DNA of 64,000 nt from an uncultured Chitinophagales bacterium (GTDB lineage Bacteria > Bacteroidota > Rhodothermia > Balneolales > CAYWCV01), in the NCBI GenBank assembly GCA_964456845.1, contig CAYWCV010000002.1, forward strand, positions 15,314 to 79,313, written 5' to 3'. Made by a program: the position numbers and the translations under genes. Below the pieces are notes generated by a model. That model searched no databases. It was not told where the DNA came from and worked only from the letters and a program-made list of their open reading frames with translations. Shown piece after piece: positions 36,107-50,114 of this stretch. The first letter of the stretch is position 1, and each line of letters opens with the position of its first letter.

Positions 36107-39100
36107 TTACTTGACTAGGGCAACTTTGCTTGTTGCCCTGAACGAACCCGCATGCATTTCAACGATGTACACACCACTGGCCAAATGGGATGCATCCCAC
36201 ACAATGTTGTGGTAACCAGCACCCAAGATTCGATCGGCCAAGACGGCAACTTTTCGACCCGTTACGTCATAAACGTGGATGCGAACGGCCGAAGGACTCG
36301 GCAGCGCGAAGCTGATATTGGTGGTTGGATTGAACGGGTTTGGATAGGCATTATTTAAATGATACTCCTGCGGCAGTTGTGCGTCTGCATAAAGATCGAC
36401 TTGACCGGGATTTCCGATTACCCAGTCAAATAGGTGCTTCCCTTCAAGAAGGTAGAGCTCCAGTGTTCCGTCTTGTTCGAACATCAACTTTCTGCCCGTC
36501 TTCGAATCAAAGAGGTAGGAATGTAATCCATCCACCAAAAGAACTTTCAAGGTATAGTAACCCGATTCCGATACCTCAATGGATGTTTCCTCCGTAATGA
36601 CCTGGCTTGTGTTCGGGTGCGAGAGGGTGGACCAAAAACGAATTCGATCATGTATATCATCCTTATATAGGGTAATGCTTGCACTACTGAAGGTCCCTGG
36701 TGGTGCTACGTGATCATGCTTGTCGTAGCCTTCGGTTGCGTCGTCTGCTAATAGGATAACCGTCGATCCAAGTAGTGATTCTTGGTCGTAGAGTTCCAGT
36801 GAAACCTGGCGTAGTTTTCCGGATCGGTCGTTACCATCCGTCTCAATGCCAGCAGCAGCAGCCATTTGAGCTTGTGCTGGGTAGGGGATTTCCAGCTCGG
36901 TACGGTTAGAACGGTTAAAGAAGTAATACCCAATGTTTACTTGCATCGTCGTCGACGGAACCCATAACCCTTCGAAGGCAAATATCGGATCGGTGATCGC
37001 ATTCATCTGTTGCACCGCAGACCATGACACCGCCCTCTCAAAAGGGTTGCCAATGATGTTCCATCCGGGATTAAGCGGAATGCGATAGCTGTCTTGGTTT
37101 GTAAGGGTTACAGCAGGGATTGTCTGATTTACAACCCAATCTCGTTTTGCCAGAATCCAGAAGCCGCGGCCGGGGCGCAGATTGAATCCAGAGCTGTTGC
37201 GCGACACTTCAACAGTGTTGCTCAGGCCGTTGGCATTGCTGCCCGTTTCTGCATAGGCATTCCAATCGGATCTCTGCTTGCCGTAATCTTCGAAGGTGAA
37301 AACAATAGGAAGGTTGGCGTCGCCTGCAATTGCCGCCAAGCGGTAGGACGACTGCCGTGTATTCGCAAAAGGAATCGATTTTTGGACGTTTACTTGGCCT
37401 GCATATGCGAATGTCCTGAGTTGGCCTGTTTCAGACCACTGACTTGGTCCGCTCACATTGAAGGCGCGGACCCTCCAGAAATAATTCTGGTCAAAGTTTT
37501 GAAGGAATACTGTAAAAGTCGTATCGGCACGCTCTTCGGTTGTAAGCAGTACGGTGCTAAAATCGGGTTGTGTGGAAAGTTGCAGTTGATACCTGTCGGC
37601 ATCTGGACGGGATTTCCATACAAAGGTTTGCGTACGTTTTGCGTTGGTCAACCCATCAGCGGGCGATGCCGAAACGGGTGGGTCGGGTACTTTTGGAGCC
37701 GTCGTAAATTGGGTGGTATCCGACCAAGCACTGAGCCCGCTCACGTTGCGTGACGCAACCCGTACCCAATATGTCTGTTCGGGTTTCAGGTTGTTCAGAA
37801 TCAGCGTAACATCGTTGTAGTTCTGGGCATCCACAACAAGCTCACTTTCAAAAATATCGGACTCTGATACCTGAATGTCATATCCTTGAGCCCGTGCTGC
37901 TGGCTCCCACTGTAGTGCTAACGGCATGAATATCATCTGGGCACCATCCAGCGGATTCAGGATGCTTGTTGGAGCGGGAAGTTCGGGAAGCGTGCGAAAC
38001 ATTCGCACTTCCGACCATGCACTCTCTCCAGAGCTGTTGAACGCCTTGACCCTCCAGTAATGGATCGTGTTGAACGGAAGCGGTGCGGTTGCCGTCAAGT
38101 CAAGCTTGGTGGCCGTGATGTTTGAATCATCAATAACAAGCTGTGTCTCAAAATCTACGCTGAGCGATAGCTGCAATTGATAGCGCTCCACAAACGAGTT
38201 AGATTGCCATTCCATAATGATCGGCTGTGGAATGAAGTCCAAGTTGTTTGCAGGGGTTAACAGCGACGGCGCAAGCGGTGGCTCGGGAATTGTCGTGAAC
38301 GATCTCACCTGCGACCACGCACCTTGTCCACCCGAATTAAATGCCGCAACGCGCCAATAATACGTTTGGCCCTTATTCAGATTTGTAAGACTGAAAAATG
38401 TGTTTGTCACGTTTACATCTGCCAATACGGCGACATTTAAGTCGGGAATGTTCGACAGCTGGACGCGATAACCATCACTGCGCGTGGATGGATTCCAACG
38501 TAGCAGGACGGGTATCGGAGTATTAATCGTCTGCGTAGGAGGGGTGATCAATACCACTTGGTCTGGTATCTGAACAACCGTTGTGAACGATCGTACTTCT
38601 GACCAGTCTCCAAAGCCGGCTGTGTTTCTGGCTCTGACCCTCCAGTAGTATGTTGTTTGGGGCAATAATGCGCTTAGAAGAAATTCTGTGGCTGCCTGGC
38701 CATCGGATGCAAACACGCTTGTTTGAAATGTGGAGTCGACCGAGACTTCCATGCTGTATGAAGTAGCTCCCTGAACAGTCGACCAGTCGATAAGTAAAGG
38801 CGTCTTTGCATTTGAAAAATTATTGTCCGGTGCAACTAGTGCCGGCACACCCGGAGTGACAACAACCGTTCTGAAGGTCCTTGTCTCCGACCATGAGCTT
38901 TCGCCAGCCTGATTTATCGCAGAGATCCTCCAATAGTACCTTTCTGACGTGAGAAGATCCGACAAAATGAAAAATGTGGATTGAACACCAGTTGTGTCGA
39001 CAAGCCTTGCCGAAAAATTGGCGTCCAGCGAAAGTTGTACCCTATAAGACGAAGCACCACTGGTTGGTTGCCACACAAGCTGAATTGTGGATGGAATGTC

Positions 39101-41380
39101 AATGGCATCATTCCCGGGCAAGCTTAGCACGGGTGTTGCAGTGGTACTTGCATTGATTGTAACAAACAAGAACGTACTCGACCAGTCGCCATCACCACCC
39201 GGGTTGGATGCCCGCACTCTCCAATAGTAGGTCCTGTTTGGAATAAGGTCGCGAGCTTGGTACTGTCTTTCGCTGGTCTCGGCATTTACTACCAACGTTG
39301 CAAACGACTGTGTTGTCGAGACCTGTATGCGATACCTGTCGGCTCGTGCCGCCTCGTGCCAGCTCAAATTTGGTGCTAACAGCACACCATTCTGGTTGTT
39401 CGAAGGATTAGCCAAATTCACTTGCGATGGTGGCGAAATTATTGTCTTGAGGCTTCTAACAGCAGACCATTCGGATTCGCCTCCAATATTGACAGCTCTT
39501 ACACGCCAATAGTACGTAGTGTTAGCGTTGAGTTTGGTGATAATGATCTCGGTCGAACTTGTTACCTCATCAAAAAAAGTCTCCGCAAAAGCATCGGTGG
39601 TGGAAATTTGAATCTGGAACTCACTGGCACTAAGTACGGGTCCCCATTGGAACTTCACGGAAAGGGTGTCGCTACCCACCAGTCCGTTCTCGGGTGCAAC
39701 CGGAAGTGGCGCAGCTGGCGGCAGGTTAACAGTGAACTGGCGTACAGGTGACCAGTCGCTTTCCGATCCCACCCGCTCCGCTTTAAGTCTCCAATAGTAG
39801 GTGTTGTTATCCGACAATCCTGAAACGGCAAAAGTGGTTTGGCTAAGTCCACTTTCGTCCGCTATGAGCGTGTTTTCAAAATTGCTCGAGTTTGCAATCT
39901 GGAGCCAATAGGATTGTGCCTGTGGAACCGAATTCCAGGCAAAATCTACGTTGGAACCCAACCCGCTCTGCGACACTTGAGGGCTTATTGCCAAAGGGTA
40001 TGCAAGTCGCGTTCGAAAAGTAGCGACATCCGACCAAGCGCTTTCGCCTAAATTGTTGACGGCCTTGATACGGTAATAATAATCAGACAATCCATTACCT
40101 AGATCCAGCTGTAGCTGATTGGCGTCTGATAGGATGACATCGTGCTCAACTGCCGTAAATTCGTTGCTGTTCGAAACCTGCAATTGAAACGAAAATGCGT
40201 TATTGACGGGCAACCATCTAAAAATCGGACTTGTTGTAACTTCGCTGGAGCTGTTTACTGGAAAAACTGCGATTGGTGCATCCGGAAGGTCTAGCGCAGA
40301 TCTTCCAAAGTAATCGTGGTTTTGGCTGCCAATTTTGGAAAAAGAGCCTCCTAAATGAATTACACCATTCAAGATGGAGACGGCATTCACCCGTTCATTT
40401 GTCTCTCCCGGATTCTTCCACGAACCCCCTTCAATGTTGGCTAGGTTCAGAATTGACGGATCGGTGCTGGATGTAAATTCGCCGCCGATGACCATATCCG
40501 TATTATCGCTCGAAATATCGTAAACCGTGCCGTTGACACCCGTTCCAAGTGTCGACCAAGCCGTTCCATTCCAGGTAGATACTGCTCCGCTAAACTCTCC
40601 GCCCACTACAAGCTGCCCACCGTGCAGCGAGATGGCATACACTACCCCATCTAAACCTGAGCCGATGGCACCCCAAGCCGTTCCGTTCCATCGTGCAATT
40701 CGTTCGGTCGCCACACCACCTGCCAATGTAAATTCCCCACCGGCGATGAGGTCATCTCCGTTCGAATAAAGTGCGTAAACAGGGGCATCTGCCCCAGACC
40801 CCAACGGCTCCCATTGTGTTCCGGTCCAACGCGCTATGTGGTTGAGCGTAATGCCCCCCGATGAAGTGAATTCCCCGGCTATGTAAATGCTTCCCTTGTG
40901 GTTAACTATCGCCCGAACAGTCCCATTTACACCGGCGCCCAAGGCCTGCCAGGCAACCCCGTCCCATCGCACGATATGGTTCACCGTCTGGCTTCCTACC
41001 TCGGTGAAGTCGCCTCCAACGATTAAAAAGTTGTCTGCCGTTTCAAGTGCATATACGGGCCCATTTAACCCGGATTGAAGCGATTTCCACTCATTGCCCG
41101 ACCAACGGGCAATATGGTTCACCAATTTACCGCCAGCAGTCTGGAAATCACCGCCAACATACCATGTATCATTTTTATATATAATTGTATGAACGGGTCC
41201 GTCTAGGCCTTGGCCGAAGTCGAGCATTGAGTGTGCCTGGTCCATATCTTGACCCTGTCGGGCATGGACGACTCCCACAACCACAAAAAGAATTGCGATA
41301 GAGATCCAGATAAGGCGCCACCGTGACGGTGAAACTACCTTGTCATCTGAGTACTTGCTATGTTGGAAAATCCTTTGCAA
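36107..41380 (-). CDS. Giant T9SS-secreted surface protein: 7-blade beta-propeller, 10 Fn3-like repeats, unknown domain, and Por/T9SS C-terminal sorting domain
   Basis: 1757 aa with N-terminal TM/signal 'WRLIWISIAILFVVVGVVHA'. Seven ~46-aa repeats follow the pattern 'GG.F...GG...N.IARW.G..W..LG.G.NG.VYA'. Ten ~96-aa repeats end in 'YYWRVRA.N..G.S.WS..R.F.T'. The C-terminus 'YPNPFNPTTNISF...IHVYDVTGRKV...ASGVYIVEM...KVALVK' is a classic type A T9SS CTD. Confidence 0.85.
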   Translation of the reverse strand: MQRIFQHSKYSDDKVVSPSRWRLIWISIAILFVVVGVVHARQGQDMDQAHSMLDFGQGLDGPVHTIIYKNDTWYVGGDFQTAGGKLVNHIARWSGNEWKSLQSGLNGPVYALETADNFLIVGGDFTEVGSQTVNHIVRWDGVAWQALGAGVNGTVRAIVNHKGSIYIAGEFTSSGGITLNHIARWTGTQWEPLGSGADAPVYALYSNGDDLIAGGEFTLAGGVATERIARWNGTAWGAIGSGLDGVVYAISLHGGQLVVGGEFSGAVSTWNGTAWSTLGTGVNGTVYDISSDNTDMVIGGEFTSSTDPSILNLANIEGGSWKNPGETNERVNAVSILNGVIHLGGSFSKIGSQNHDYFGRSALDLPDAPIAVFPVNSSSEVTTSPIFRWLPVNNAFSFQLQVSNSNEFTAVEHDVILSDANQLQLDLGNGLSDYYYRIKAVNNLGESAWSDVATFRTRLAYPLAISPQVSQSGLGSNVDFAWNSVPQAQSYWLQIANSSNFENTLIADESGLSQTTFAVSGLSDNNTYYWRLKAERVGSESDWSPVRQFTVNLPPAAPLPVAPENGLVGSDTLSVKFQWGPVLSASEFQIQISTTDAFAETFFDEVTSSTEIIITKLNANTTYYWRVRAVNIGGESEWSAVRSLKTIISPPSQVNLANPSNNQNGVLLAPNLSWHEAARADRYRIQVSTTQSFATLVVNAETSERQYQARDLIPNRTYYWRVRASNPGGDGDWSSTFLFVTINASTTATPVLSLPGNDAIDIPSTIQLVWQPTSGASSYRVQLSLDANFSARLVDTTGVQSTFFILSDLLTSERYYWRISAINQAGESSWSETRTFRTVVVTPGVPALVAPDNNFSNAKTPLLIDWSTVQGATSYSMEVSVDSTFQTSVFASDGQAATEFLLSALLPQTTYYWRVRARNTAGFGDWSEVRSFTTVVQIPDQVVLITPPTQTINTPIPVLLRWNPSTRSDGYRVQLSNIPDLNVAVLADVNVTNTFFSLTNLNKGQTYYWRVAAFNSGGQGAWSQVRSFTTIPEPPLAPSLLTPANNLDFIPQPIIMEWQSNSFVERYQLQLSLSVDFETQLVIDDSNITATKLDLTATAPLPFNTIHYWRVKAFNSSGESAWSEVRMFRTLPELPAPTSILNPLDGAQMIFMPLALQWEPAARAQGYDIQVSESDIFESELVVDAQNYNDVTLILNNLKPEQTYWVRVASRNVSGLSAWSDTTQFTTAPKVPDPPVSASPADGLTNAKRTQTFVWKSRPDADRYQLQLSTQPDFSTVLLTTEERADTTFTVFLQNFDQNYFWRVRAFNVSGPSQWSETGQLRTFAYAGQVNVQKSIPFANTRQSSYRLAAIAGDANLPIVFTFEDYGKQRSDWNAYAETGSNANGLSNTVEVSRNSSGFNLRPGRGFWILAKRDWVVNQTIPAVTLTNQDSYRIPLNPGWNIIGNPFERAVSWSAVQQMNAITDPIFAFEGLWVPSTTMQVNIGYYFFNRSNRTELEIPYPAQAQMAAAAGIETDGNDRSGKLRQVSLELYDQESLLGSTVILLADDATEGYDKHDHVAPPGTFSSASITLYKDDIHDRIRFWSTLSHPNTSQVITEETSIEVSESGYYTLKVLLVDGLHSYLFDSKTGRKLMFEQDGTLELYLLEGKHLFDWVIGNPGQVDLYADAQLPQEYHLNNAYPNPFNPTTNISFALPSPSAVRIHVYDVTGRKVAVLADRILGAGYHNIVWDASHLASGVYIVEMHAGSFRATSKVALVK
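36110..36352 (-). other. T9SS type A C-terminal sorting domain (sub-feature of the giant protein)
   Basis: The last ~81 aa match the Por_Secre_tail pattern (NPF..TT.I.F.L......I.VYDV.GR.V......G.H...WD.....ASGVY). Confidence 0.85.
37409..40285 (-). repeat. Tandem array of 10 Fn3-like coding repeats (~96 aa each)
   Basis: Ten occurrences of the terminal motif (Y/H/T)(Y/F)W(R/V)(V/L/I)... .N..G.(S/G).WS. The array boundaries (aa ~366-1324) were placed by hand and are approximate. Confidence 0.75.
40295..41200 (-). repeat. Seven beta-propeller blade repeats (~46 aa each)
   Basis: aa ~61-362. Seven copies of V(Y/H/R)A(I/L)....(D/G)..(Y/L)(V/I)(G/A)G(D/E)F...G......(I/V)ARW.G..W..LG.G. Boundaries approximate. 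Confidence 0.7.
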
Positions 41381-41387
41381 GCCTTGA

Positions 41388-42368
41388 CTAATTAGATGGT
41401 GGGGTCGGGGGTCCGGGTAATTGTGCGTCTGGCCTCAACAGAAACCATGCCGTAGTGGAAGTACCGGCAATGCCGACCAACGTCCACAGCCACCAGCGCG
41501 TGCGTCTGGCCGGCACAATACGTGGAATGGCCGCAACTTGAACGGGCTGAAACGTGATGGGAAACGTATACAGGGAATCCGCCTTGACTTCTTGGTTCAG
41601 GATAATTTCTTGATAACCCTCTTTGTTTACCGAAATGATATACATCCCCGGTGCAAAGCTAATGGTGTCCCTGATGCCGATAACCGGATGTCGACGCACC
41701 AGGTTGTTCATGTCTAGAAACTCGACAGTAAAACCAGGGTGGTTAGCTTCAAAGGTTAGCCTGCCCGTTCGTGGTACGTCATAAACAGGTTCTTCCACCA
41801 CCTTCAGACGGTAGGTCGCCATCTTTTGCTGGTGCAATTCATGCACTTGGTAGTAAATGTCGAAATCCTTTACGTTCCGGATTTGAATGTGCCGGTCAAT
41901 CCGCGTGATGTTGGGTATGAAAAGGAATACAAATCGAAAACTGATGCTGCCATCGGGACGTATATTGACGTTACGCGATTCGAAACGGATGTTCTGAATT
42001 CTCAGCTGTTCATTCCGAAACCAGTTGAGCACGTCTTCGGCAGAGAAGTATCGCTGAACGCTGGGATCTAGCACGAGTCTGACAATGCCCTCGTCTTGGG
42101 TCACCTGCGGTATGATGTTGTCCACATTCTGAATTTCGACAAGCTCTAGTGCAAACTTGCCGGGCTTGAGCAGGCGCTGGCCGCCGTTGACCTGTGCGGC
42201 AGCGAATTGCACGTTGACGAATGCACACAACATGACCGTCCATATCAATACGGTATAAGGACCAAAGCGTTGTGGTGCTCTGCGATTCACGTATAAATGA
42301 CCCCTGAAAATGTTGACAAACCCCTCAGTTCCAAGCAATGGATTCCTATAGATAAATAAAGATACCAA
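41388..42368 (-). CDS. PEGA-like domain membrane protein (hypothetical)
   Basis: 326 aa. N-terminal hydrophobic 'YTVLIWTVMLCAFVNVQFAAAQ'. PEGA-like 'HPGFTVEF...APGMYIISVNKEGYQEIIL'. C-terminal TM 'WWLWTLVGIAGTSTTAWFLL', then a Pro-rich tail. Confidence 0.45.
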   Translation of the reverse strand: MVSLFIYRNPLLGTEGFVNIFRGHLYVNRRAPQRFGPYTVLIWTVMLCAFVNVQFAAAQVNGGQRLLKPGKFALELVEIQNVDNIIPQVTQDEGIVRLVLDPSVQRYFSAEDVLNWFRNEQLRIQNIRFESRNVNIRPDGSISFRFVFLFIPNITRIDRHIQIRNVKDFDIYYQVHELHQQKMATYRLKVVEEPVYDVPRTGRLTFEANHPGFTVEFLDMNNLVRRHPVIGIRDTISFAPGMYIISVNKEGYQEIILNQEVKADSLYTFPITFQPVQVAAIPRIVPARRTRWWLWTLVGIAGTSTTAWFLLRPDAQLPGPPTPPSN

Positions 42369-42408: not shown

Positions 42409-43704
42409 TCAGCGGTTTACCTGAACGCGAAAGATGGGGGGTTGACCGGTGGGTGCCGGAAACGGTGCCTTCAGCTGCTGTATATGGTCCATTCGTACGG
42501 CAAGAACGGCACGAATGTCCGACTTTTTCCACGCATACCGGCCTTGGGGATTAATGACGAATGTGTCAGTAATTCGTAGTATATGCTCATAAGCAAGCTC
42601 GGGGTGCCGCACCATCCATATACCTCGCACGACAACCTCATCGCCCTCGACTTTCCGGGCGCTTATCGTGTTGTAGTAGGCCGGCAAGCCCTGACCGACC
42701 ACCGACCCAAGTCGGTCAATACCATCCCCGCCAGTGAGTGTAAACCTTTCCACTTCTTTTCCTTCGACCGCCAATTCCACGCTGAAATCAGGGTCTGACA
42801 GTAGGTCGCGATATCTCAAGTCGGGTGGAAGCGATACGGTTGCCCACCGATGCGCCACCAACGAAGCGATCCTTCCTTCTGGAATCGCCAACTGTTCACG
42901 GTTTGTCGGAACCCAGTGACTCGATTGATTTTTTCGAGCGAATGAACGCTCGTTGGTGTAATAGTCAATTACCGGCAATTGGAAGGAATAGGCATTCGCT
43001 CGCATAGTAAGTCCGTAAAAAACACTCGGCTCATACTCAACAGATACGTTACCCCCATGGTTCGTAGTAAGCATGGTCACAAGATAGTCGCGGTAGAGTA
43101 CACTTTGACCTTGCAAGAGCAGATCGAGTGTGGGTGTGATTCTGACACGAAGATTGCCTGAGCCCGAGTCTGATGCCAGTACAGGTCCATTTTCGTCGAT
43201 TGTGAGGTAAAAGCTGCTGGGATTTAGTTCCGGGTTCTGCCTCACAAATTGCAGTAGCTGAGCTTCCTTGCTGCCAAGAAAGGGCGTTTCCACCACGATA
43301 TAATTCGAGGCGACCACACTTCTCAGATAGGCTTCGTCTCTTGTAAGTGCAGACCAAATGATTCTGGCTGCGATGATCTGTGCTGGCTTAGAGATATACG
43401 TGTCGGCGATAGGACCCAAATCGAGAAACTCACCTACGTCGTAAATCTGTCCGTCAACGGTGAGATGAAATTCCAGTTTACGCTCTCCCTCAGACGTGTC
43501 GAGCGTTCTGACGATGCTGGTACCTAAAAACGATGGGCCGCGCACCTCGTCTTCAGCTGTAACCGTTGCGTTGACACGTTTGGCCCAAGCATCGTAGACC
43601 ACCCTGGGAAAAGAGGGAACAAACTGATCGTTTGCAACCAGACTAGCCGGAAGGCAAAGATAGATGACCGTGGCAATGATGATCAAGCTTCGTGTCATCA
43701 TCAA
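42409..43704 (-). CDS. Secreted hypothetical protein (no family recognised)
   Basis: 431 aa with signal peptide 'MMMTRSLIIIATVIYLCLPASLVAN'. Track start 43704 is TTG, and ATG codons follow at 43701 and 43698. Coding status is supported by length and tight operon packing only. Confidence 0.5.
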   Translation of the reverse strand: MMMTRSLIIIATVIYLCLPASLVANDQFVPSFPRVVYDAWAKRVNATVTAEDEVRGPSFLGTSIVRTLDTSEGERKLEFHLTVDGQIYDVGEFLDLGPIADTYISKPAQIIAARIIWSALTRDEAYLRSVVASNYIVVETPFLGSKEAQLLQFVRQNPELNPSSFYLTIDENGPVLASDSGSGNLRVRITPTLDLLLQGQSVLYRDYLVTMLTTNHGGNVSVEYEPSVFYGLTMRANAYSFQLPVIDYYTNERSFARKNQSSHWVPTNREQLAIPEGRIASLVAHRWATVSLPPDLRYRDLLSDPDFSVELAVEGKEVERFTLTGGDGIDRLGSVVGQGLPAYYNTISARKVEGDEVVVRGIWMVRHPELAYEHILRITDTFVINPQGRYAWKKSDIRAVLAVRMDHIQQLKAPFPAPTGQPPIFRVQVNR

Positions 43705-43706
43705 GC

Positions 43707-44732
43707 CTATCTGATGATTTCGAACATGTTCAGATCAATCAGGGTGCCATCCTCAAACGGTTCGGGCTGCCAGGCCCTCACATAGATCAAAGGCTGGTCT
43801 TCGTTGCTGAAATCGATCATGAAGGAAAGGTATCCTTCGTCGGAATAGGTAGATGACGACCATTTTTGAAAAACCTGCACCCAGTAGATCTCATCATACT
43901 CCGGGTGTTTTAGGATATTGACACCACTGAAGTCGATATTGACGAAAGCGTTGTTGCGGAAGATGACGTTGCGCAGGCGGTCGATGTACTCTGCCTTCGT
44001 CTGGCGGTTGAGTCGAAACCGTTCGCGCACCACCTCGTTGTCTCGAGTACGAACCATGCTTCCACTGTCGCCATATTCAGAAATACGTGTTCCAGTAATG
44101 ATGAGCGCCTTGTCGCTGAACTGGAGGTCGATATAATCGGCATCCTTTCGATTATAGGCTGTCTTGAACTGCTCGAGGAAGTTTATGATTACACGCCGTC
44201 TGTAGTCATCCTCCAGGCTTACGGCGTTTTGGATGATCATGTTGAACTGATGTTCCTCGATGGCAAACCGGGCATCTGTCAACCTGCCGTCAGCATCAAA
44301 GTTCAAGATCAACTCGAGCGACCTGCCGCCGGAACTCGAATCGGAAGTGACGTACATCCTCCTGATTTCGTAGGTGTTCTGGTTCAGCATGATCACCTGC
44401 GACCGTAGTTCTCCGGCGTTCGTGCGAATACCCGTTTCTTTTATGAGTTCATTGAGACGCTCAACACCGTAGGCACCATCACCTGCAGCTATGTTTGGCG
44501 GCAGCAGTATACTGCCTACCGATGGGTTGTAACGGTTGATGGCCGTCATTACGGCACCCGAGTTTCGCTCCAGCATGGAGACGATGTCTCTTCCCGGACC
44601 GTCTGTGAGGATGACCTTTACTTCCTGAGATAACTGAGCGTGAGCATGCACCTGCGGCAATGCCGTCAGCAGCAGTGCGAGAACGAGTAGGCGAAGCATG
44701 GCGAGGGGCTGAATAAATCGTGTGGACATCAT
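43707..44732 (-). CDS. Secreted hypothetical protein (C-terminal half possibly NTF2/SnoaL-like)
   Basis: ATG 44732 overlaps the cyclase TGA (ATGA). Signal peptide 'LAMLRLLVLALLLTALPQVHAHAQ'. 'RRRVIINFLEQFKTAYNRKDADYIDLQFSDKALIITG' loosely resembles NTF2-like domain openings; this is a weak visual call. Confidence 0.5.
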   Translation of the reverse strand: MMSTRFIQPLAMLRLLVLALLLTALPQVHAHAQLSQEVKVILTDGPGRDIVSMLERNSGAVMTAINRYNPSVGSILLPPNIAAGDGAYGVERLNELIKETGIRTNAGELRSQVIMLNQNTYEIRRMYVTSDSSSGGRSLELILNFDADGRLTDARFAIEEHQFNMIIQNAVSLEDDYRRRVIINFLEQFKTAYNRKDADYIDLQFSDKALIITGTRISEYGDSGSMVRTRDNEVVRERFRLNRQTKAEYIDRLRNVIFRNNAFVNIDFSGVNILKHPEYDEIYWVQVFQKWSSSTYSDEGYLSFMIDFSNEDQPLIYVRAWQPEPFEDGTLIDLNMFEIIR

Positions 44733-45856
44733 TGTAGAGCTCTTACCCAAATGACTCTCTTTCCGGAATAACGTTGAGAGAGTGTGCTTATTTCCTCATT
44801 CGTCTTAAGGTCGACATATCGAGAATTTGTGTAAACAAGGTATGCATCGATCGGCGATGAGCCGGTTGCAGCGGGATCTAGAACAGCAACCAGAACCCCT
44901 TCAAGGCTGGAAAGGCTATCGCGCGACGTATAGAAGGACAGTGCCCCCATGTCGTTGCCTCTCAGTAGCGCACGCTGCAAATCGTACCAGTTACTCGATG
45001 AGGTCAATGTGGCGTATTGCGACTTAAACCGGTACAGAGGATCCGTCGGATTCGTGCTCTCGGTCGGGGTTTGCCGTGGTGGAGTAGTGTTAGTAGTGTT
45101 TTGACTGGCGGAACCGCTGGTGTCTGGAATAACCGGTACCGTTGTGCTCGTGTCGCGTTTTGATACGGTGGTATCTGGAGCTTCGATTGCCAAACTGTCG
45201 GACGGGGTGATGGTATTCGACGTATCAAACATACGTCCTCCCCAAATGAGGTACGCCGCAATCAAGACGGCTATTACCCCCAACGTTGACAGACCAGCTG
45301 CTGACGTGGGGCTGAAGTGATACTTTTGATTCCCATCTAACTCGATGCTAAACAGCTCAACGGGTTTTTGGATGCTTTTCAGCCGCTGTGGACCTATCCG
45401 TCTTATGGTTATGTCGATCTTGTTGTAGATCTGGTCATAAACGGAGCGTGTAATAACGATGCCGCCGGGCTGTGCCTGAGTGTAGATGCGCGAAGCAAGG
45501 TTCACACCGTCGCCGTAGACGTCGTTTGACTCAAACACGACATCTCCGATATGAAGGCCGATTCTCAGATTAATTTTTCGCTCCTCGGCCACTGATCCGT
45601 TATATCTGCGCATCTCGCGCTGAATGGCAATGGCGCATCGAGCCGCCTGCAGGGCACTTTGGAACTCAATTAAAAAGGCATCGCCCATGGTCTTGATTTC
45701 GTTGCCACCGAGCGACCTGAAGATCGGGCGCAGCATCTCGCGATGCAGCTGCAAGAGTTCGAGAGCCAACTCCTCGTTCCGCTGTGTCATGGCACCGTAC
45801 CCGACAACGTCGGTAAACATGATGGCAGTAAGTCTACGCTCAGCCGAAGACAGCAT
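44729..45856 (-). CDS. Membrane-anchored class III adenylate/guanylate cyclase with extracytoplasmic C-terminal domain
   Basis: 375 aa. CHD motifs 'AIMFTDVVGYG', 'IKTMGDAFLIEF', 'RIGLHIGDV' and 'YGDGVNLASRI'. Single TM 'LSTLGVIAVLIAAYLIWGG', an S/T/P-rich linker, then a ~110-aa unknown domain. Confidence 0.85.
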   Translation of the reverse strand: MLSSAERRLTAIMFTDVVGYGAMTQRNEELALELLQLHREMLRPIFRSLGGNEIKTMGDAFLIEFQSALQAARCAIAIQREMRRYNGSVAEERKINLRIGLHIGDVVFESNDVYGDGVNLASRIYTQAQPGGIVITRSVYDQIYNKIDITIRRIGPQRLKSIQKPVELFSIELDGNQKYHFSPTSAAGLSTLGVIAVLIAAYLIWGGRMFDTSNTITPSDSLAIEAPDTTVSKRDTSTTVPVIPDTSGSASQNTTNTTPPRQTPTESTNPTDPLYRFKSQYATLTSSSNWYDLQRALLRGNDMGALSFYTSRDSLSSLEGVLVAVLDPAATGSSPIDAYLVYTNSRYVDLKTNEEISTLSQRYSGKRVIWVRALQ

Positions 45857-45922: not shown

Positions 45923-46933
45923 TTAAGCGCGCCGAAGACTTCGGCTGACATATACCAGCACGAGTGGGGTTGTGACAATAACAACCACAAAAACGAGGGC
46001 ATGGGATGCTAATGCGTAGGTGAATCCTGCTGTCTCTGGAATGCCATAGAGGATATAAAGGCTTTTTTGAACTAACAGGTGATACGTGCCAATACCACCA
46101 GGCGACGGTATCACCACACCAACCGACGACACCACCGTTACTACTAATGCCTCGGCAAGACCCAAGTTTTCCATCCCACTGCCGGGAAGCATCGAAAACG
46201 GAAGGCCCGCCATCAGAATGTAGCAGCACCACAGACCTGTTGTGAACAACAAAAATCGAAATGGGTGCTGGATGCTTCGTATTGAAAGCAAGCCTGCCTT
46301 GAAGTGAGCGCCAAACGTGATCAGCCGCTCCCTAAAGGAGCGAACGTAAACGTACCTTCGTGCCATGTATCCGATTGTCCACCATACTGTTATTATAGAC
46401 AGCACACCTGCAATCATCACTAACAGCAGTTTGACATAAAGACCACCCAGCTCTTCGGTGTTATCGAGTCCCAATAGGCCAATAATCAACCTCGAATCAG
46501 TGAAAACACAGAAAAAGACAATCATCATCAGAACAAAAAGCACAACCAAATCGATGATTCTTTCGAGCACCACCGTACCCATCACAGCAGCGACGGGCTT
46601 GTCTTCTTTTTTGGCCACGTAATAACAGCGTGTGATCTCCCCGAGGCGTGGCACGGCGTAATTAACGGCATACCCGTTCATCACCCCGGCAAGCAGGATA
46701 CGCCGCCTGGAAGGTATGCGGTCGTGTTCGGCGAGGAGCTTCCATCGCTCCATTCGAAGCCAGAAGCTTGCAAGGGTGGCCCCTACAAAGTATACAACCC
46801 AACCCGTCTGTATGCGCGACCACATGTCGCCAACCTCGCGTATATCGACGCTGCGAAGTGCCAACCATAGAAAACCACCCCCAATGAGGATGCTGACCGA
46901 AATTTTTATGACGTTCTTTGAGGTGGTGTTCAA
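45923..46933 (-). CDS. Flippase-like / lysylphosphatidylglycerol-synthase-TM-region family membrane protein (UPF0104)
   Basis: 336 aa, polytopic. N-terminus 'KISVSILIGGGFLWLALRSVD' and 'PRLGEITRCYYVAK' are typical of the family (from memory). Confidence 0.65.
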   Translation of the reverse strand: MNTTSKNVIKISVSILIGGGFLWLALRSVDIREVGDMWSRIQTGWVVYFVGATLASFWLRMERWKLLAEHDRIPSRRRILLAGVMNGYAVNYAVPRLGEITRCYYVAKKEDKPVAAVMGTVVLERIIDLVVLFVLMMIVFFCVFTDSRLIIGLLGLDNTEELGGLYVKLLLVMIAGVLSIITVWWTIGYMARRYVYVRSFRERLITFGAHFKAGLLSIRSIQHPFRFLLFTTGLWCCYILMAGLPFSMLPGSGMENLGLAEALVVTVVSSVGVVIPSPGGIGTYHLLVQKSLYILYGIPETAGFTYALASHALVFVVVIVTTPLVLVYVSRSLRRA

Positions 46934-46954
46934 CGGATTGAAACTGGTGAGGAC

Positions 46955-47584
46955 CTAATTCCTAAGGTCGATAATTTCTGCGGATTTAGGGTAATTCAAG
47001 GTGAATACTTGTGCATCCTGCTTTAGAAATTCGCCAAATGAAAACCTGGAGATGATCGTGTTGCCACTTTGGTCGACTGCGGTGATTCGGATGGGGAGTG
47101 CCTTGTCGTCCAACTCAATCTCGATGGCAGTGAAAAGAGCAAACGGGTCGCCGGACGTCAACACCACGGAGCTGTTCTTTCCGTTGCTTGGACCATTTTT
47201 TATCGTGTATTCACTCAACGAGCCATGAAGAAATCGCGACGGCGCATAATCGTCCTCGTCGGCATTATACGGACTAATGATAACCTGGTTCTTCTCTGAG
47301 TTATACACATGCGAGGTGTTGCCGTCGACTATCACTAGCCCCGACCGCATGGAGAGCTTATAACGGCCCTTGTCGATCCAGACCTCGCCCAGCGTGGTGA
47401 GGGTGTCGCCCGTGTACGAGTCTATGAATGAGTGGTTCAGCTGTGAATGGAATAATTCTCCACTAGAGAATCGTGCCCGCAGCGTGTCGAACATCTTGTT
47501 GCCCGTTGACCCAGCCTGGGCAGCGAGCTGCAGAGGTGTAAACGCGGTAAGTACCAGCAATAATGCAAGCAACTTACAGCTCAT
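46955..47584 (-). CDS. lolA: LolA-like outer-membrane lipoprotein carrier protein
   Basis: Start taken at ATG 47584 ('MSCKLLALLLVLTAFTPLQLAAQ'), overlapping the ftsK end by 11 nt. 'F.Q......G......G.VWIDKGRYKL' is a LolA-like pattern, and the ftsK-lolA order is conserved. Confidence 0.7.
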   Translation of the reverse strand: MSCKLLALLLVLTAFTPLQLAAQAGSTGNKMFDTLRARFSSGELFHSQLNHSFIDSYTGDTLTTLGEVWIDKGRYKLSMRSGLVIVDGNTSHVYNSEKNQVIISPYNADEDDYAPSRFLHGSLSEYTIKNGPSNGKNSSVVLTSGDPFALFTAIEIELDDKALPIRITAVDQSGNTIISRFSFGEFLKQDAQVFTLNYPKSAEIIDLRN

Positions 47585-50114
47585 CGAGGTCGCGAAGGTG
47601 TTGTTCGAGTTCCTCTTCGTCGGCAATGAGCACTTGACGGGCAGAACTGCCCTGGTATTTGCCGACGATGCCGGCGTTGAAAAGTTGATCGATAATGCGG
47701 CCTGCACGTCCATAGCCTACCTTTAGCTTTCGTTGAAGTAAGGAAACTGATCCCTGCTGATGTAGCACCACTACTTTGGCCGCATCTTCAAAAAGCGCAT
47801 CTCGTTCCTCAAGGGCAGCCTGATTGCCAGATTCACCGTTTGGATCTTCGATCACTGGCAACATATACCTGCGGTCGTAACCGCGTTGGTTGCCGATGAA
47901 CGAGGTGATACGGTCTACCTCCTCGGTCGAAACGAATGCGTTCTGGATACGAATCATGGGCCCACCCGCCGAGAACAGCATGTCTCCACGTCCAACGAGC
48001 TGATCGGCACCCATAGTATCTAATATGGTGCGCGAGTCAACCTTAGACGCAACCTTGTACGCAATACGTGCCGGGAAGTTGGCTTTGATGGTTCCGGTGA
48101 TCACATTCACCGATGGGCGCTGCGTTGCAACAACCAAGTGGATGCCAACCGCCCTTGCCAGCTGTGCGATACGTGCGATGGGCTCTTCAATTTGCTTGCC
48201 GGCTGTTATCATCAGGTCGGCCAATTCGTCGATGATGACCACGATGTATGGAAGGAGCTTGTGTCCTAAGTCGGGTTCGAGCTGGCCTGCTTTGTACTTG
48301 GTGTTGTATGCCTTGAGATCGCGCACCATCGCCATTTTAAGCAAGTCGTACCGCTCGTCCATCTCCTTACATACGCTGTTCAGTATTTCGAGAACCTGGG
48401 ACGTGTCTGTAATGATGGCCTCCTCAAAGTGAGGCAGGGTGGCTAAAAAGTGGTTTTGTATGTTTTGGTACAGCGACAGCTCAATCTTTTTCGGGTCAAC
48501 GAGGACGAATTTGAGCATCTCGGGGTGGCATTTGAACAGCAGGCACGCCAAAATGGTATTGATGCCAACCGATTTTCCGGATCCAGTGGCACCGGCAATG
48601 AGCAGGTGCGGCATTTTCGTGAGGTCGATCATGAAGACCTCGTTTTCGATGGTCTTCCCGAAAGCGACTGGCAAATCCATGTCGGTCTCGACAAACTTAC
48701 GCGTGTTGATCACCGACCGTGCGAAGACAATTTCGCGTCGGTGATTTGGCACTTCGATACCTACCATGGCTTTACCCGGAATCGGGGCGATGATCCTGAG
48801 CCCATGCACCGCCATGGCCATCTTCAGGTCGTCGGCATAGCTCTCAATTCGGCTGATCTTCACATCGGGAGCCGGGGTGAGCTCGTAAAGGGTCACTGTT
48901 GGGCCGACAATCGCATCGATGCTGATGATGTCGATGCCGTGCCTGCCGAGCTTGTCGAGGATTATCTGCTTCTTCTCGTCAATTTCTGCGTAATCAATCG
49001 GTTTTCCCTCGTTGGGTGGCGTATCGAGGAGATCGATGGTTGGAAAGCTGTACTTAATGTCGGGTACGGTGCGTTCGAGGTCCTTCTGTCGGCGCTTTAG
49101 CTCGTCGTCCGATGCCTCCTCGTCACCTTCGCCGATAAATACCTTCACCTCTACACCATCGGTCTTCGTGGCGACTTCACGCTCCGGTTTTTCGAGTATG
49201 GCTCTTGGTGGCTGTACTTCCACCTCCGCTTGTTCCGAAAGTTCTGCCTGACGCCGTTCTTCGGCCCTTCGCTTTGATTCGGCTATTCGGGCCTGAATGG
49301 CGGCCTCGCGTTCTTCTTCAAGACTTGCTTTTTTGCCGGCAACACCGTTTTTCTCTTCGTTATCGGGTGTGTCTGGGCTTACTTGTCGTCGTACCGGCTT
49401 GGGAGCCGGCTCTTCTTCGTAAGCGACAGGTCGAGTCGGTTCGTTTTTGTTGAGCGCCGCCAACTCGGCTTTAGCCTTTGCTTTCTCCCTGCGGTTAATA
49501 TTCCAGGCCTTGATACGGTCGATCATACCTTGCACATCCTTGTCAATAACGAACAGGCCCGTAACAAGAACCAGCAAGCCGAGAATGATCGGTGTGCCAA
49601 CGTCACCGGTGAATTGCTGGAGCAATTTCGATATCGACGCGCCTACGGCACCGGCCCATTTCAAGCTTAATGCCTCGCCTGCCTCAAACCAATTGATTAA
49701 ATACCCAGCAATTGTGGAGAATAAGAACAACAGGTAGGTACCAAGCATTGTTATACCGTTCAAGCGCAGTAAAGGCTTGCTTCTGAATACATACCATCCG
49801 TACAGCAGACCCAGCATGGGGATAATAAGACTGAAGTAGCCGAAACCATTCCTGACGAATCCATGCGAAATCCATGCGCCTAAGACACCCAGCCCATTTT
49901 TGACTCGCTGCGACTCTTCCGCTCCCGATGTAATACCACCGAAGCCCAAGGCATCGATATGTGCCTGGTCTGCGTCGCTGTAGGTAATGATGCTGACGCC
50001 GATGAGCACCGATATGCCGATGATGACAATACCTAGTATTTCCAGCTTCCGGTGATGCGACAATCCGGAAGCTGCCTGCTCTTTGGCCGATTTTCTGTTC
50101 TTGCGTTTCTCCAT
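47574..50114 (-). CDS. ftsK: DNA translocase FtsK
   Basis: 846 aa. N-terminal TM domain, charged linker, motor with Walker A 'GATGSGKS' and 'VVIIDELADL', and a C-terminal gamma wHTH 'SVSLLQRKLKVGYGRAGRIIDQL'. Confidence 0.95.
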   Translation of the reverse strand: MEKRKNRKSAKEQAASGLSHHRKLEILGIVIIGISVLIGVSIITYSDADQAHIDALGFGGITSGAEESQRVKNGLGVLGAWISHGFVRNGFGYFSLIIPMLGLLYGWYVFRSKPLLRLNGITMLGTYLLFLFSTIAGYLINWFEAGEALSLKWAGAVGASISKLLQQFTGDVGTPIILGLLVLVTGLFVIDKDVQGMIDRIKAWNINRREKAKAKAELAALNKNEPTRPVAYEEEPAPKPVRRQVSPDTPDNEEKNGVAGKKASLEEEREAAIQARIAESKRRAEERRQAELSEQAEVEVQPPRAILEKPEREVATKTDGVEVKVFIGEGDEEASDDELKRRQKDLERTVPDIKYSFPTIDLLDTPPNEGKPIDYAEIDEKKQIILDKLGRHGIDIISIDAIVGPTVTLYELTPAPDVKISRIESYADDLKMAMAVHGLRIIAPIPGKAMVGIEVPNHRREIVFARSVINTRKFVETDMDLPVAFGKTIENEVFMIDLTKMPHLLIAGATGSGKSVGINTILACLLFKCHPEMLKFVLVDPKKIELSLYQNIQNHFLATLPHFEEAIITDTSQVLEILNSVCKEMDERYDLLKMAMVRDLKAYNTKYKAGQLEPDLGHKLLPYIVVIIDELADLMITAGKQIEEPIARIAQLARAVGIHLVVATQRPSVNVITGTIKANFPARIAYKVASKVDSRTILDTMGADQLVGRGDMLFSAGGPMIRIQNAFVSTEEVDRITSFIGNQRGYDRRYMLPVIEDPNGESGNQAALEERDALFEDAAKVVVLHQQGSVSLLQRKLKVGYGRAGRIIDQLFNAGIVGKYQGSSARQVLIADEEELEQHLRDLDEL

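What the first reader, a model, noticed from the sequence alone, without database searches (positions are those of the whole stretch)
44729..45856. Class III cyclase with inverted topology: catalytic domain first, then a TM segment, an S/T/P linker and an unknown ~110-aa outer domain
The catalytic core looks intact. The metal-binding Asp residues are in 'FTDVVGYG' and 'KTMGDAF', the adenine-type Lys is in 'IKTMGD', and the Asn/Arg pair is in 'GVNLASR'. After a single TM (LSTLGVIAVLIAAYLIWGG) comes a Ser/Thr/Pro-rich tract ('TSTTVPVIPDTSGSASQNTTNTTPPRQTPTESTNPTDP'). A compact C-terminal domain follows ('YRFKSQYATL...RVIWVRALQ') with no motif I recognise. This could be a ligand- or partner-binding sensor domain facing the periplasm. 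It might contact the co-encoded secreted proteins.
Basis: partly seen in the sequence, partly recalled or inferred. Interest (0 to 1): 0.55.

Follow-up and report, generated by a model that had tools for sequence, protein, structure and literature searches.

The report
Membrane adenylate cyclase with novel periplasmic docking domain
This gene encodes a single-pass membrane enzyme that makes cAMP inside the cell and carries, on the outside of the membrane, a small uncatalogued domain that in all seven gene contexts examined is encoded directly before one particular secreted protein, which points to a new way for Bacteroidota to link a cell-envelope apparatus to second-messenger signalling.

Summary
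ORF 44729-45856 (-) encodes a 375-aa protein. It has an N-terminal class III adenylate cyclase domain with all six catalytic residues invariant in 27 homologues. This is followed by one TM helix, a 64-aa hypervariable Ser/Thr/Pro linker, and a conserved 104-aa C-terminal domain.

"Catalytic domain first, then TM" is not unusual. 40 of the 88 nearest relatives have it, usually with a TolB-like (COG5616) module outside.

The C-terminal domain is what is new. Its AlphaFold model is very confident (pLDDT 94). It has no Pfam, NCBIfam, PDB-sequence or Foldseek match, and it is unrelated to the TolB-like module.

A profile search of 1.84 billion proteins finds the domain only at the extreme C-terminus of other proteins. 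These are Ser/Thr kinases, other cyclases, a zinc-ribbon protein, multi-TM proteins and secreted LPP20/PKD proteins. In all seven gene contexts examined, the next gene is a homologue of the window's downstream gene d1, a secreted protein with an NTF2-like C-terminal half. A PEGA membrane protein and a giant surface protein (with a T9SS sorting tail where its C-terminus was seen) usually follow.

Best reading: the domain is a periplasmic docking module for d1 that couples an envelope cassette to cAMP synthesis. Binding and regulation are inferred, not shown.

The parts
45341..45847 (-). Class III adenylate cyclase catalytic domain (residues ~4-172), cytoplasmic. Catalytic residues are D16 and D59 (metal), K55 and D112 (adenine specificity), and N119 and R123 (transition state).
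   Evidence: Pfam PF00211 E=2e-20. PDB 3mr7 E=8e-33 and Ma1120 E=1.5e-19. All six residues are invariant in 27 homologues. AF2 pLDDT is 84-92.
45239..45307 (-). Single transmembrane helix (residues ~184-206). It follows the catalytic domain after an ~11-residue poorly conserved segment, with no signalling helix between them.
   Evidence: Best KD window is 2.24 at res 186-204. AF2 predicts a helix at 183-206. Hydrophobicity is conserved in all 27 homologues although sequence is not. K+R bias is 54 (N side) against 22 (C side).
45044..45238 (-). Hypervariable Ser/Thr/Pro-rich linker (residues 207-271), predicted disordered and periplasmic.
   Evidence: 52% S+T+P. Mean column conservation is 0.36. 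Length is 62-79 aa in the family. AF2 pLDDT is 29-37.
44732..45043 (-). Conserved C-terminal periplasmic domain (residues 272-375). The secondary-structure order is three helices, four strands, a short helix and a final strand. It ends in the motif R-Y-S-G-K-R-x-I-W-V. It belongs to an uncatalogued domain family and is proposed to dock onto d1.
   Evidence: The AF2 domain-only model has pLDDT 94 and pTM 0.85. There is no Pfam, NCBIfam or PDB-sequence match. Foldseek finds nothing with E<0.1 in PDB or E<0.01 in BFVD. A profile search found 43 hits, always C-terminal, in kinases, cyclases, a zinc-ribbon protein, multi-TM proteins and LPP20/PKD proteins.
43707..44732 (-). d1: a secreted protein of 341 aa from the ATG at 44732 (347 aa from the TTG at 44750). 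It has a signal peptide and an NTF2-like C-terminal half. It is the invariant genomic partner of the C-terminal domain. Its start overlaps the cyclase stop codon (ATGA).
   Evidence: ATGA overlap. Homologues lie immediately downstream of every domain carrier examined, with E=1e-63 to 1e-115. Cds6_C (NTF2-like) matches 15 of 16 family members below threshold, DUF4440 matches 6 of 16. 103 clusters were found, and UniRef names one of them 'Nuclear transport factor 2 family protein'.
42409..43704 (-). [quoted passage not shown] It is conserved in the close family and in L039.
   Evidence: No Pfam or NCBIfam hit. Orthologues are present in L001, L002 and L005-L007. The homologue L039_468 scores E=6.5e-41.
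41388..42368 (-). d3: a protein of ~300 aa with an N-terminal signal sequence and a C-terminal TM anchor. It is homologous to the N-terminal part of the PEGA/DUF5683 proteins of related cassettes. The true start is probably downstream of the listed TTG.
   Evidence: The d3 profile hits L039_706 (PEGA+DUF5683) with E=1e-45 and L040_243 (PEGA) with E=1.5e-8. The C-terminal hydrophobic stretch WWLWTLVGIAGTSTTAWFLL is visible in the translation.
36107..41380 (-). d4: a 1757-aa giant surface protein, predicted to be type IX secretion cargo. It has propeller-like repeats, many Fn3/Ig-like repeats and a C-terminal Por_Secre_tail sorting domain. It is the last gene of the cassette.
   Evidence: Pfam fn3 E=7e-50 (6 stretches), Por_Secre_tail E=6e-10, DUF5122. 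Equivalent giant proteins end the cassettes in L001, L002, L038, L039, L045 and L049.

Best explanation
The gene encodes a receptor-type, single-pass membrane class III adenylate cyclase.

Shown:
- The N-terminal catalytic domain has a complete, adenine-specific active-site set.
- One TM helix follows it after about 11 residues.
- A disordered Ser/Thr/Pro tether of about 64 aa comes next.
- A compact 104-aa domain ends the protein. It belongs to a domain family absent from Pfam, NCBIfam and the PDB.
- That family occurs only at the extreme C-terminus of proteins whose N-terminal parts vary: cyclase, Hanks-type kinase, zinc ribbon, multi-TM, and secreted LPP20/PKD modules.
- In all seven gene contexts examined, the gene carrying the domain is immediately followed by a homologue of d1, a secreted protein with an NTF2-like C-terminal half.
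- A PEGA/DUF5683-type membrane protein and a giant surface protein usually follow d1. The giant protein carries a T9SS sorting tail where its C-terminus was seen.

Inferred:
- The cyclase domain is cytoplasmic and the C-terminal domain is periplasmic.
- The C-terminal domain is a docking module that binds d1, or the d1-containing envelope complex.
- Class III cyclases are active only as dimers, and a floppy tether cannot transmit a conformational signal. So binding most likely controls cAMP synthesis by clustering or dimerising the membrane-anchored catalytic domains, or by holding them apart.
- In this way the assembly or occupancy state of the surface apparatus is reported to the cytoplasm as cAMP. 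In sister systems the same report is made by protein phosphorylation.
For: **Cyclase identity.** Pfam E=2e-20. PDB 3mr7 E=8e-33. D16, K55, D59, D112, N119 and R123 are invariant in 27 sequences. They align with the Ma1120 substrate and transition-state positions K101, D157, A164 and R168 (PMC4215837).

**Topology.** There is a single hydrophobic helix. The positive-inside bias is 54 against 22 in the family and 38 against 15 in other carriers. The domain follows signal peptides in the LPP20/PKD proteins and follows the TM of kinases.

**Domain reality and novelty.** It is conserved. The AF2 model has pLDDT 94. No library matches it.

**Mobility.** There are 43 profile hits, of which the 40 credible ones all end within about 12 residues of the protein C-terminus.

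**Link to d1.**
- A d1 homologue is the next gene after the window-family cyclases, a divergent cyclase (L038), an LPP20/PKD protein (L039), two kinases (L040, L042), a zinc-ribbon protein (L044) and an LPP20-like protein (L045). E-values range from 1e-63 to 1e-115.
- The cyclase stop codon and the d1 start codon overlap as ATGA.
- The proteins P0253, P0256 and P0260 fuse an LPP20-like carrier directly to d1 and lack the domain. This is what would be expected if the domain's job is to join the two.
- Even in Flavobacterium and Prevotella, the protein upstream of d1 has a weak domain-like C-terminus.
- The distance from TM to domain ranges from about 3 to 90 aa among carriers. The partner must therefore be reachable close to the inner membrane, which fits a soluble periplasmic protein.
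Against: - No physical interaction was tested.
- Gene adjacency proves a functional link, not binding. The partner could be d2, d3 or the assembled complex rather than d1.
- The reverse implication fails. In L050 a d1 homologue has no detectable domain in its upstream neighbour. The L047 and L048 matches are weak (E about 1e-5 in a small search space) and lack the terminal I-W-V motif.
- Nothing shows that the domain regulates cyclase activity. The cyclase could be constitutive and the domain only a tether.
- Much of the window's neighbourhood, including housekeeping genes, is syntenic among the close relatives. Within that family, adjacency alone is therefore uninformative. The argument rests on the distant carriers.
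- Topology was inferred without a dedicated predictor.
Confidence: 0.6

Rival explanations
1. The C-terminal domain is an autonomous periplasmic sensor for a small molecule or an envelope polymer. d1 and the rest of the cassette are co-transcribed targets or co-workers, not binding partners. Ligand binding alone would control cyclase dimerisation.
For: The domain sits where sensor domains sit in receptor kinases and cyclases. It has conserved polar residues, with D327 nearly invariant and R362, Y363 and R367 invariant in the close family. A d1 homologue can exist without a detectable domain upstream.
Against: An autonomous sensor would be expected in many genomic contexts. Here all seven contexts examined place it directly before d1. 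It also occurs on fully secreted LPP20/PKD proteins that have no signalling output. Carrier-d1 fusions drop the domain. It shows no similarity to any known ligand-binding fold.
Confidence: 0.15
2. The domain is a passive anchor. It binds d1 or the cassette only to place a constitutively active cyclase (or a kinase, or an LPP20/PKD module) next to the apparatus. This would give local cAMP production, or would scaffold assembly, with no information flowing from periplasm to cytoplasm.
For: Many carriers have no cytoplasmic signalling domain at all: the LPP20/PKD and LPP20-like secreted proteins. The ancestral role of the domain is therefore structural. The 62-79-aa disordered linker cannot transmit conformational changes. 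There is no signalling helix between the cyclase and the TM.
Against: Two unrelated signalling enzymes (a class III cyclase in two divergent lineages, and Hanks-type kinases) have been recruited repeatedly to the same module. This is the pattern of a sensory input being wired to different outputs. Because class III cyclases must dimerise, partner-driven clustering is itself a regulatory mechanism.
Confidence: 0.2
3. The hydrophobic segment is not membrane-spanning, or it inserts with the opposite orientation. The C-terminal domain would then be cytoplasmic and would regulate the cyclase intramolecularly.
For: No dedicated topology predictor could be run. In the query itself the flanking charges are nearly balanced, with one Lys on the N side and one Arg on the C side.
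Against: A KD score of 2.24 over 19 residues is conserved in all homologues. The family-wide positive-inside bias is 54 against 22. The same domain follows cleavable signal peptides and PKD domains in other proteins. Its genomic partners all carry signal peptides. The linker composition is typical of an extracytoplasmic tether.
Confidence: 0.03

Closest known systems
Class III adenylate cyclases with an N-terminal catalytic domain, one TM, and a periplasmic TolB-like (COG5616) module with or without TPR repeats (for example P0042 from Fidelibacterota, and P0067, which JGI names 'TolB-like protein/class 3 adenylate cyclase')
   Same: These have the closest catalytic domains outside the family, at 44-59% identity. 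They share the domain order of cyclase first, a TM within ~30 residues, then an extracytoplasmic C-terminal part. 40 of the 88 nearest relatives have this layout.
   Different: The extracytoplasmic module is unrelated. hhalign gives probability 0.3% between the two domains, and there are no TPR repeats. The query has a long disordered tether, a 104-aa uncatalogued domain and the d1 cassette as its neighbourhood.
Characterised soluble class III cyclase catalytic domains: Ma1120 (M. avium; PDB 4wp9), Rv1900c/LipJ (PDB 1ybt), and 3mr7
   Same: They share the compact catalytic core. The Lys/Asp adenine-specifying pair and the transition-state Arg align (PMC4215837).
   Different: The query keeps the canonical Asn (N119) where Ma1120 has Ala164. 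The query is membrane-anchored through its C-terminus and carries a periplasmic domain. The comparators are soluble or have cytoplasmic partner domains.
Receptor-type Hanks Ser/Thr kinases such as PknB (kinase, TM, extracytoplasmic PASTA repeats); own knowledge
   Same: Same logic and same topology: a cytoplasmic N-terminal enzyme that needs dimerisation, one TM, and a C-terminal extracytoplasmic binding module. The very domain studied here is found in that position on Hanks-type kinases (P0134, P0138, P0140, P0147, P0157).
   Different: The output enzyme in the window is a cyclase. The domain is not PASTA, with no Pfam hit. The putative ligand is a co-encoded protein rather than a peptidoglycan fragment.
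SPOR-domain proteins (FtsN, DamX): TM, long disordered linker, small C-terminal alpha/beta domain; own knowledge
   Same: The overall layout of the extracytoplasmic part is the same: a single TM, a low-complexity tether and a ~100-aa C-terminal globular domain.
   Different: There is no SPOR (PF05036) match even at E<=10. The predicted secondary-structure order (three helices, four strands, helix, strand) is not the beta-alpha-beta-beta-alpha-beta SPOR fold. In other carriers the tether can be as short as ~3 residues.

Membership tests
Class III nucleotidyl cyclase (Pfam PF00211) | Catalytic domain matching the family model above the curated threshold | tested here: met
   73.5 bits against a 21.9-bit cut-off, E=2e-20, res 11-169. 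PDB 3mr7 E=8e-33.
Class III nucleotidyl cyclase (Pfam PF00211) | Two metal-binding Asp residues plus the transition-state Asn/Arg pair | tested here: met
   D16, D59, N119 and R123 are present and invariant in 27 homologues. The spacings K-x3-D, D-x6-N and N-x3-R match the Ma1120 alignment (PMC4215837).
Class III nucleotidyl cyclase, adenylate-specific | Lys/Asp substrate-specifying pair (guanylate cyclases have Glu plus Cys/Ser/Thr and similar) | tested here: met
   K55 and D112 align with Ma1120 K101 and D157 (PMC4215837) and are invariant.
Class III nucleotidyl cyclase | Head-to-tail dimer and measurable cyclase activity | not testable with these tools
   This needs enzyme assays with ATP and GTP, or a multimer model. 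No such tool was available.
Cyclase-TM-TolB-like(COG5616)/TPR cyclases | TolB-like module after the catalytic domain or TM | tested here: not met
   hhalign of the domain profile against the TolB-like region of 9 sister cyclases gives probability 0.3% and E=0.22.
Cyclase-TM-TolB-like(COG5616)/TPR cyclases | C-terminal TPR repeats | tested here: not met
   No TPR family appears in the Pfam scan of the query. The protein ends at residue 375.
SPOR domain (PF05036) | Match to the SPOR model, and the beta-alpha-beta-beta-alpha-beta fold | tested here: not met
   There is no SPOR hit at E<=10 or E<=1 for 19 and 37 domain sequences respectively. The AF2 secondary-structure order differs.
NTF2-like fold (for the C-terminal domain itself) | Structural similarity to NTF2-like, SnoaL or DUF4440 structures | tested here: not met
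   Foldseek against PDB gives a best E of 0.18 and TM<=0.35, and no NTF2-like entry appears among the 50 best-ranked (listed) hits. hhalign against d1, which has an NTF2-like half, gives probability 3.9%.
New 'C-terminal docking domain' family defined here (alignment A3) | A ~100-aa domain at the extreme C-terminus with the motifs G-x-I-x-F-G, E-G-x-x-V-x-V-x-D and Y/F-x-G-K-x-x-I-W-V/I, encoded immediately upstream of a d1 homologue | tested here: met
   The query is the seed. W370 is invariant and D327, L359 and G365 are nearly invariant across 37 diverse members. d1 follows with an ATGA overlap.

The most novel reading that the evidence does not exclude
The C-terminal domain and d1 form a dedicated periplasmic docking pair. 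Through it, a conserved Bacteroidota (FCB-group) envelope cassette plugs into interchangeable cytoplasmic signalling heads. The cassette comprises the NTF2-like protein d1, a PEGA/DUF5683 membrane protein, a cohesin-like protein in most versions, and a giant secreted adhesin-like protein. The heads are a cAMP cyclase here and Hanks-type kinases or a zinc-ribbon protein elsewhere. This would be an undescribed trans-envelope surface-sensing pathway, and a rare defined input for cAMP signalling in Bacteroidota.
Probability: 0.35. Interest if true: 0.8.

Novelty: new variant of a known kind. Interest (0 to 1): 0.62.

Why it matters
Most bacterial class III cyclases have no known input signal. Here comparative genomics points to a specific, testable protein partner (d1) and to a specific envelope apparatus as the input.

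The same uncatalogued domain has been fused to cyclases in two divergent lineages, to Ser/Thr kinases, to a zinc-ribbon protein and to secreted modules. That marks it as a general adaptor, and makes it worth a family definition and a structure.

The associated cassette ends in a giant type IX secretion cargo protein. The finding may therefore connect surface-adhesin or secretion status to second-messenger signalling in Bacteroidota, where cAMP biology is largely unexplored.

Homologues of d1 exist in cultured Flavobacterium, so experiments are feasible.

Tried and rejected
1. **TolB-N-like identity of the C-terminal domain.** Rejected by profile-profile comparison (probability 0.3%).
2. **Homology of the domain to d1, d2 or d3, or of the LPP20/PKD carriers to d1-d3.** Rejected (probabilities <=3.9%; phmmer found nothing).
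3. **A known fold.**
   - Foldseek against PDB and BFVD gave nothing significant.
   - A faint recurrence of CHAP, NlpC/P60 and USP (papain-like) hits was considered. It was dismissed because TM<=0.45 and the family has no conserved Cys or His.
   - The de novo TIM-barrel PDB 'hits' are a repeated 18-residue helix artefact.
4. **Word-index search with the broad domain profile.** It returned only 2 proteins from 402 candidates, a prefilter limitation, so that search was wasted.
5. **The search for related loci with the domain alignment.** It failed because no stretch was conserved enough. The single-protein scan found full-length relatives only in three MAGs labelled 'uncultured Chitinophagales'.
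6. **Literature searches.** Searches for the architecture, for PEGA/DUF5683 cassettes and for cyclase-TolB-TPR proteins gave nothing specific.
7. **P0266 (His_kinase fragment plus d1-like part).** Not used as evidence. The kinase is cut at the N-box, so it looks like an assembly chimera.
8. **Universality of 'd1 implies domain'.** Tested and not upheld (L050).
9. **Rfam scan of the whole window.** No RNA family reached threshold.
10. **Promoter assignment in the 66-bp upstream gap.** Not attempted beyond reading the sequence, because Bacteroidota promoters are not covered by the scanner.
Full report
**Observation**

All quoted sequence strings are present.

- Pfam places a Guanylate_cyc (class III cyclase) domain at residues 11-169, with E=2e-20 and 73.5 bits against a cut-off of 21.9.
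- The best solved-structure relative is 3mr7 (E=8e-33, residues 3-178). Ma1120 and Rv1900c/LipJ follow.
- Nothing in Pfam or NCBIfam matches residues 170-375.

**Family and conservation**

A search of 5.8 billion proteins found about 32 clusters that cover the whole protein. They are 44-100% identical and all are 363-386 aa long. In a 27-sequence alignment (A1), mean column conservation differs by region:

| Region | Mean column conservation |
|---|---|
| Cyclase domain | 0.86 |
| TM segment | 0.45 |
| Linker | 0.36 |
| C-terminal ~104 residues | 0.65 |

So the C-terminal part is a selected domain. The linker, 62-79 aa and 52% Ser+Thr+Pro in the query, is a spacer.

D16, K55, D59, D112, N119 and R123 are invariant. 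In the HMMER alignment, K55, D112, N119 and R123 pair with Ma1120 K101, D157, A164 and R168. The mutational study PMC4215837 identifies those positions as the two substrate-specifying residues and the two transition-state positions. The query therefore has the canonical adenine-type Lys/Asp pair, and it has the canonical Asn that Ma1120 lacks. I conclude that it is an active adenylate cyclase. The residue set is shown; the activity is inferred.

**Topology**

Several lines point to a cytoplasmic cyclase and a periplasmic C-terminus:
- The only strongly hydrophobic stretch is residues 184-206 (Kyte-Doolittle 2.24).
- AlphaFold models it as a helix at 183-206.
- Every homologue keeps a window of at least 1.77 at the same place although the sequence drifts.
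- There is no N-terminal signal peptide, and the first 180 residues are an ATP-using enzyme.
- Summed over the family, K+R within 15 residues is 54 on the cyclase side against 22 on the linker side. Ten other single-TM carriers of the same domain give 38 against 15.
- The same domain occurs after cleavable signal peptides and PKD domains, and after the TM helix of Hanks-type kinases.

DeepTMHMM could not be run.

**Is the 'inverted' order unusual?**

No. Among the 88 best non-family hits, 40 have an N-terminal cyclase, a TM within 70 residues, and a C-terminal extension. Another 34 are cyclase-first without a TM. In those proteins the C-terminal part is the COG5616 'TolB-like' module, often followed by TPR repeats. 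The topology is the norm for this cyclase subfamily.

**What is the C-terminal domain?**

Modelled alone from a 19-sequence alignment (A2), it gives pLDDT 94 and pTM 0.85. The secondary-structure order is three helices, four strands, a short helix and a final strand. Despite that confidence, nothing known matches it:
- Foldseek finds nothing in the PDB (best E=0.18, TM<=0.35).
- Foldseek finds nothing significant in BFVD (best E=0.01, TM<0.5).
- Profile searches of PDB sequences return only a repeat artefact, or nothing at all.
- Pfam and NCBIfam scans of 19 close and 37 diverse members return only scattered single-member noise.
- It is not the TolB-like module (hhalign probability 0.3%), and it is not related to d1, d2 or d3.

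**The domain is a mobile C-terminal module**

An exhaustive HMMER profile search of 1.84 billion representative proteins gave 43 hits at E<=1e-3. Apart from three low-complexity false positives, the match ends within about 12 residues of the protein's C-terminus in every case. The N-terminal parts differ:
- a second, divergent set of class III cyclases (P0156, P0145, P0132)
- Hanks-type Ser/Thr kinases (P0134, P0138, P0140, P0147, P0157)
- a zinc-ribbon protein (P0130)
- proteins with 4-5 TM segments (P0131, P0139)
- secreted proteins with an LPP20-like region, with or without a PKD domain (P0123, P0125-P0127, P0129, P0137, P0142, P0146, P0150, P0152, P0154, P0158)

A 37-sequence alignment (A3) shows an invariant Trp (W370 in the query) and nearly invariant D327, L359 and G365. 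The recurring motifs are G-x-I-x-F-G, E-G-x-x-V-x-V-x-D and Y/F-x-G-K-x-x-I-W-V/I. The distance from TM to domain ranges from about 3 to about 90 residues. The long tether in the window's protein is therefore not essential to the domain's function.

**Genomic partner**

In the window the cyclase stop codon overlaps an ATG of the next gene, d1, as ATGA. d1 is followed by d2, d3 and a 1757-aa type IX secretion cargo protein, d4. This order is kept in five related loci. In those loci much of the surrounding housekeeping neighbourhood is also syntenic, so they add little.

The informative cases are the distant carriers. The gene immediately downstream of each one is a d1 homologue, with E between 1e-63 and 1e-115:
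- the divergent cyclase (L038)
- an LPP20/PKD protein (L039)
- two kinases (L040/L041 and L042)
- the zinc-ribbon protein (L044)
- an LPP20-like protein (L045/L046)

Further along the cassette:
- A PEGA/DUF5683 protein related to d3 recurs in L038, L039, L040, L044, L045 and L049.
- A cohesin-like protein recurs in L038, L039, L045 and L049.
- A giant protein with FG-GAP, Fn3 or BNR-type repeats closes the cassette in L038, L039, L045 and L049. A Por_Secre_tail was recorded for the L045/L046 and L049 proteins. The L038 and L039 genes run off the locus.

d1 itself has a signal peptide. Its C-terminal half is NTF2-like: Cds6_C matches 15 of 16 members, DUF4440 6 of 16 and SnoaL_3 3 of 16, all below the curated cut-offs. 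UniRef names one member an NTF2 family protein.

**Fusions and the reciprocal test**

Three d1-family hits (P0253, P0256, P0260; about 605 aa) join an LPP20-like carrier directly to a d1-like region and lack the C-terminal domain. That is the pattern expected if the domain's role is to connect carrier and d1.

Starting from distant d1 homologues gave mixed results:
- In Flavobacterium cheonanense (L047) and a Prevotella MAG (L048), the upstream secreted proteins have weak domain-like C-termini (E about 1e-5). The setting there is a different operon, containing a Tubulin_2-family giant protein.
- In L050, which has a CHASE2 plus caspase-like context, the upstream protein has no detectable domain.

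So the domain implies d1, but d1 does not imply the domain.

**Mechanism**

Three things are shown: the anatomy, the catalytic residue set, and the exclusive genomic pairing of the domain with d1. The rest is inferred:
- The periplasmic domain docks onto d1, or onto the envelope complex built from d1, the PEGA membrane protein and the giant surface protein.
- The tether is disordered and no signalling helix links the cyclase to the TM. A conformational relay is therefore unlikely.
- Class III cyclases form their active sites across a dimer interface (established knowledge). Partner-driven clustering or separation of the membrane-anchored monomers is therefore the most plausible control. This is analogous to receptor kinases such as PknB and to receptor-type cyclases.
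- The same module has been recruited to cyclases twice and to Hanks-type kinases. This favours information flowing inward.
- Purely secreted carriers also exist, which keeps a passive-scaffold role in play.

I put 0.6 on the docking-and-coupling model overall. The architecture and topology deserve about 0.9, a functional link to d1 about 0.8, direct binding to d1 about 0.5, and regulation of activity about 0.4.

**Novelty**

The cyclase class and its topology are known. The extracytoplasmic domain family is not in the libraries searched (Pfam-A with models to 2025, NCBIfam of June 2026, and the PDB to 2026). The same holds for its strict pairing with an NTF2-like secreted protein and for the surrounding cassette. 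Neither the pairing nor the cassette turned up in the literature searches. I classify it as a new variant of a known kind. Full-length relatives occur in only three MAGs labelled uncultured Chitinophagales, plus metagenomes. The domain and d1 are much more widespread in Bacteroidota.

Noticed in passing
L047 8250-9990 (Flavobacterium cheonanense GCA_039539185.1); L048 8258-10041 (Prevotella MAG): Distant d1 homologues, each preceded by a secreted LPP20-like protein with a weak domain-like C-terminus, lie inside operons that hold a ~1040-aa Tubulin_2-family (PF13809) protein and several unknown proteins. In L048 a CHAT/TPR protein lies nearby. The Tubulin_2 protein may correspond to the FtsZ-like families of PMC2875224, whose operon partners are largely uncharacterised; I did not check this.
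   Followed up: partly
L050 3327-10456: A d1 homologue (33% identical) sits in a cluster of CHASE2, Peptidase_C14 (caspase-like)/Sel1, a 311-aa protein, a 222-aa protein, d1 and a TPR protein. No copy of the C-terminal domain is detectable. The d1 family is therefore used in at least three different operon types.
   Followed up: partly
P0253, P0256, P0260 (about 605 aa; metagenomic): Single-chain fusions of an LPP20-like carrier region with a d1-like region, lacking the C-terminal docking domain. They are Rosetta-stone-like evidence, and they suggest that d1 has two tandem NTF2-like halves.
   Followed up: partly
window 36107-41380 (-): A 1757-aa predicted type IX secretion cargo protein. It has N-terminal propeller-like DUF5122 repeats, at least six Fn3/Ig-like repeats and a Por_Secre_tail. 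Giant proteins at the equivalent position in other cassettes use different repeat types (FG-GAP, Kelch, BNR, Big_5), so this component is variable.
   Followed up: partly
L038 5647-6504; L039 14781-15704; L045 8044-8877; L049 4355-5203: A cohesin-like protein of ~280-307 aa lies between the PEGA/DUF5683 protein and the giant protein in most cassettes. It is absent from the window's cluster, where d3 is followed directly by d4.
   Followed up: no
window 45923-50114 (-): FtsK, a LolA-like protein and an LPG_synthase_TM (flippase-like) protein lie just upstream on the same strand with short gaps. This order, and further genes upstream of it (GcvT, ribosomal protein genes, among others), are conserved down to 46% cyclase identity (L001, L002). 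Adjacency of these genes to the cyclase therefore cannot be read as a functional link.
   Followed up: partly
window 41388-42368 (-) and 46955-47713 (-): The mechanically listed starts are probably too far upstream. d3 has ~35 residues before its signal-peptide-like segment. The LolA-like ORF overlaps the end of FtsK by ~140 nt.
   Followed up: no
L042 198-5775: The kinase that carries the C-terminal domain (P0140) is divergently transcribed from a GAF-domain class III cyclase and a kinase-TPR protein, a local concentration of signalling genes.
   Followed up: no
P0266 (489 aa, 3.4-kb metagenomic contig): A His_kinase (PF06580) region runs straight into a d1-like region at the position of the ATPase N-box. 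This is probably an assembly chimera rather than a genuine sensor kinase.
   Followed up: no
window 1-64000: No Rfam family reaches its gathering score anywhere in the 64-kb window, so there is no tRNA, rRNA or riboswitch.
   Followed up: yes
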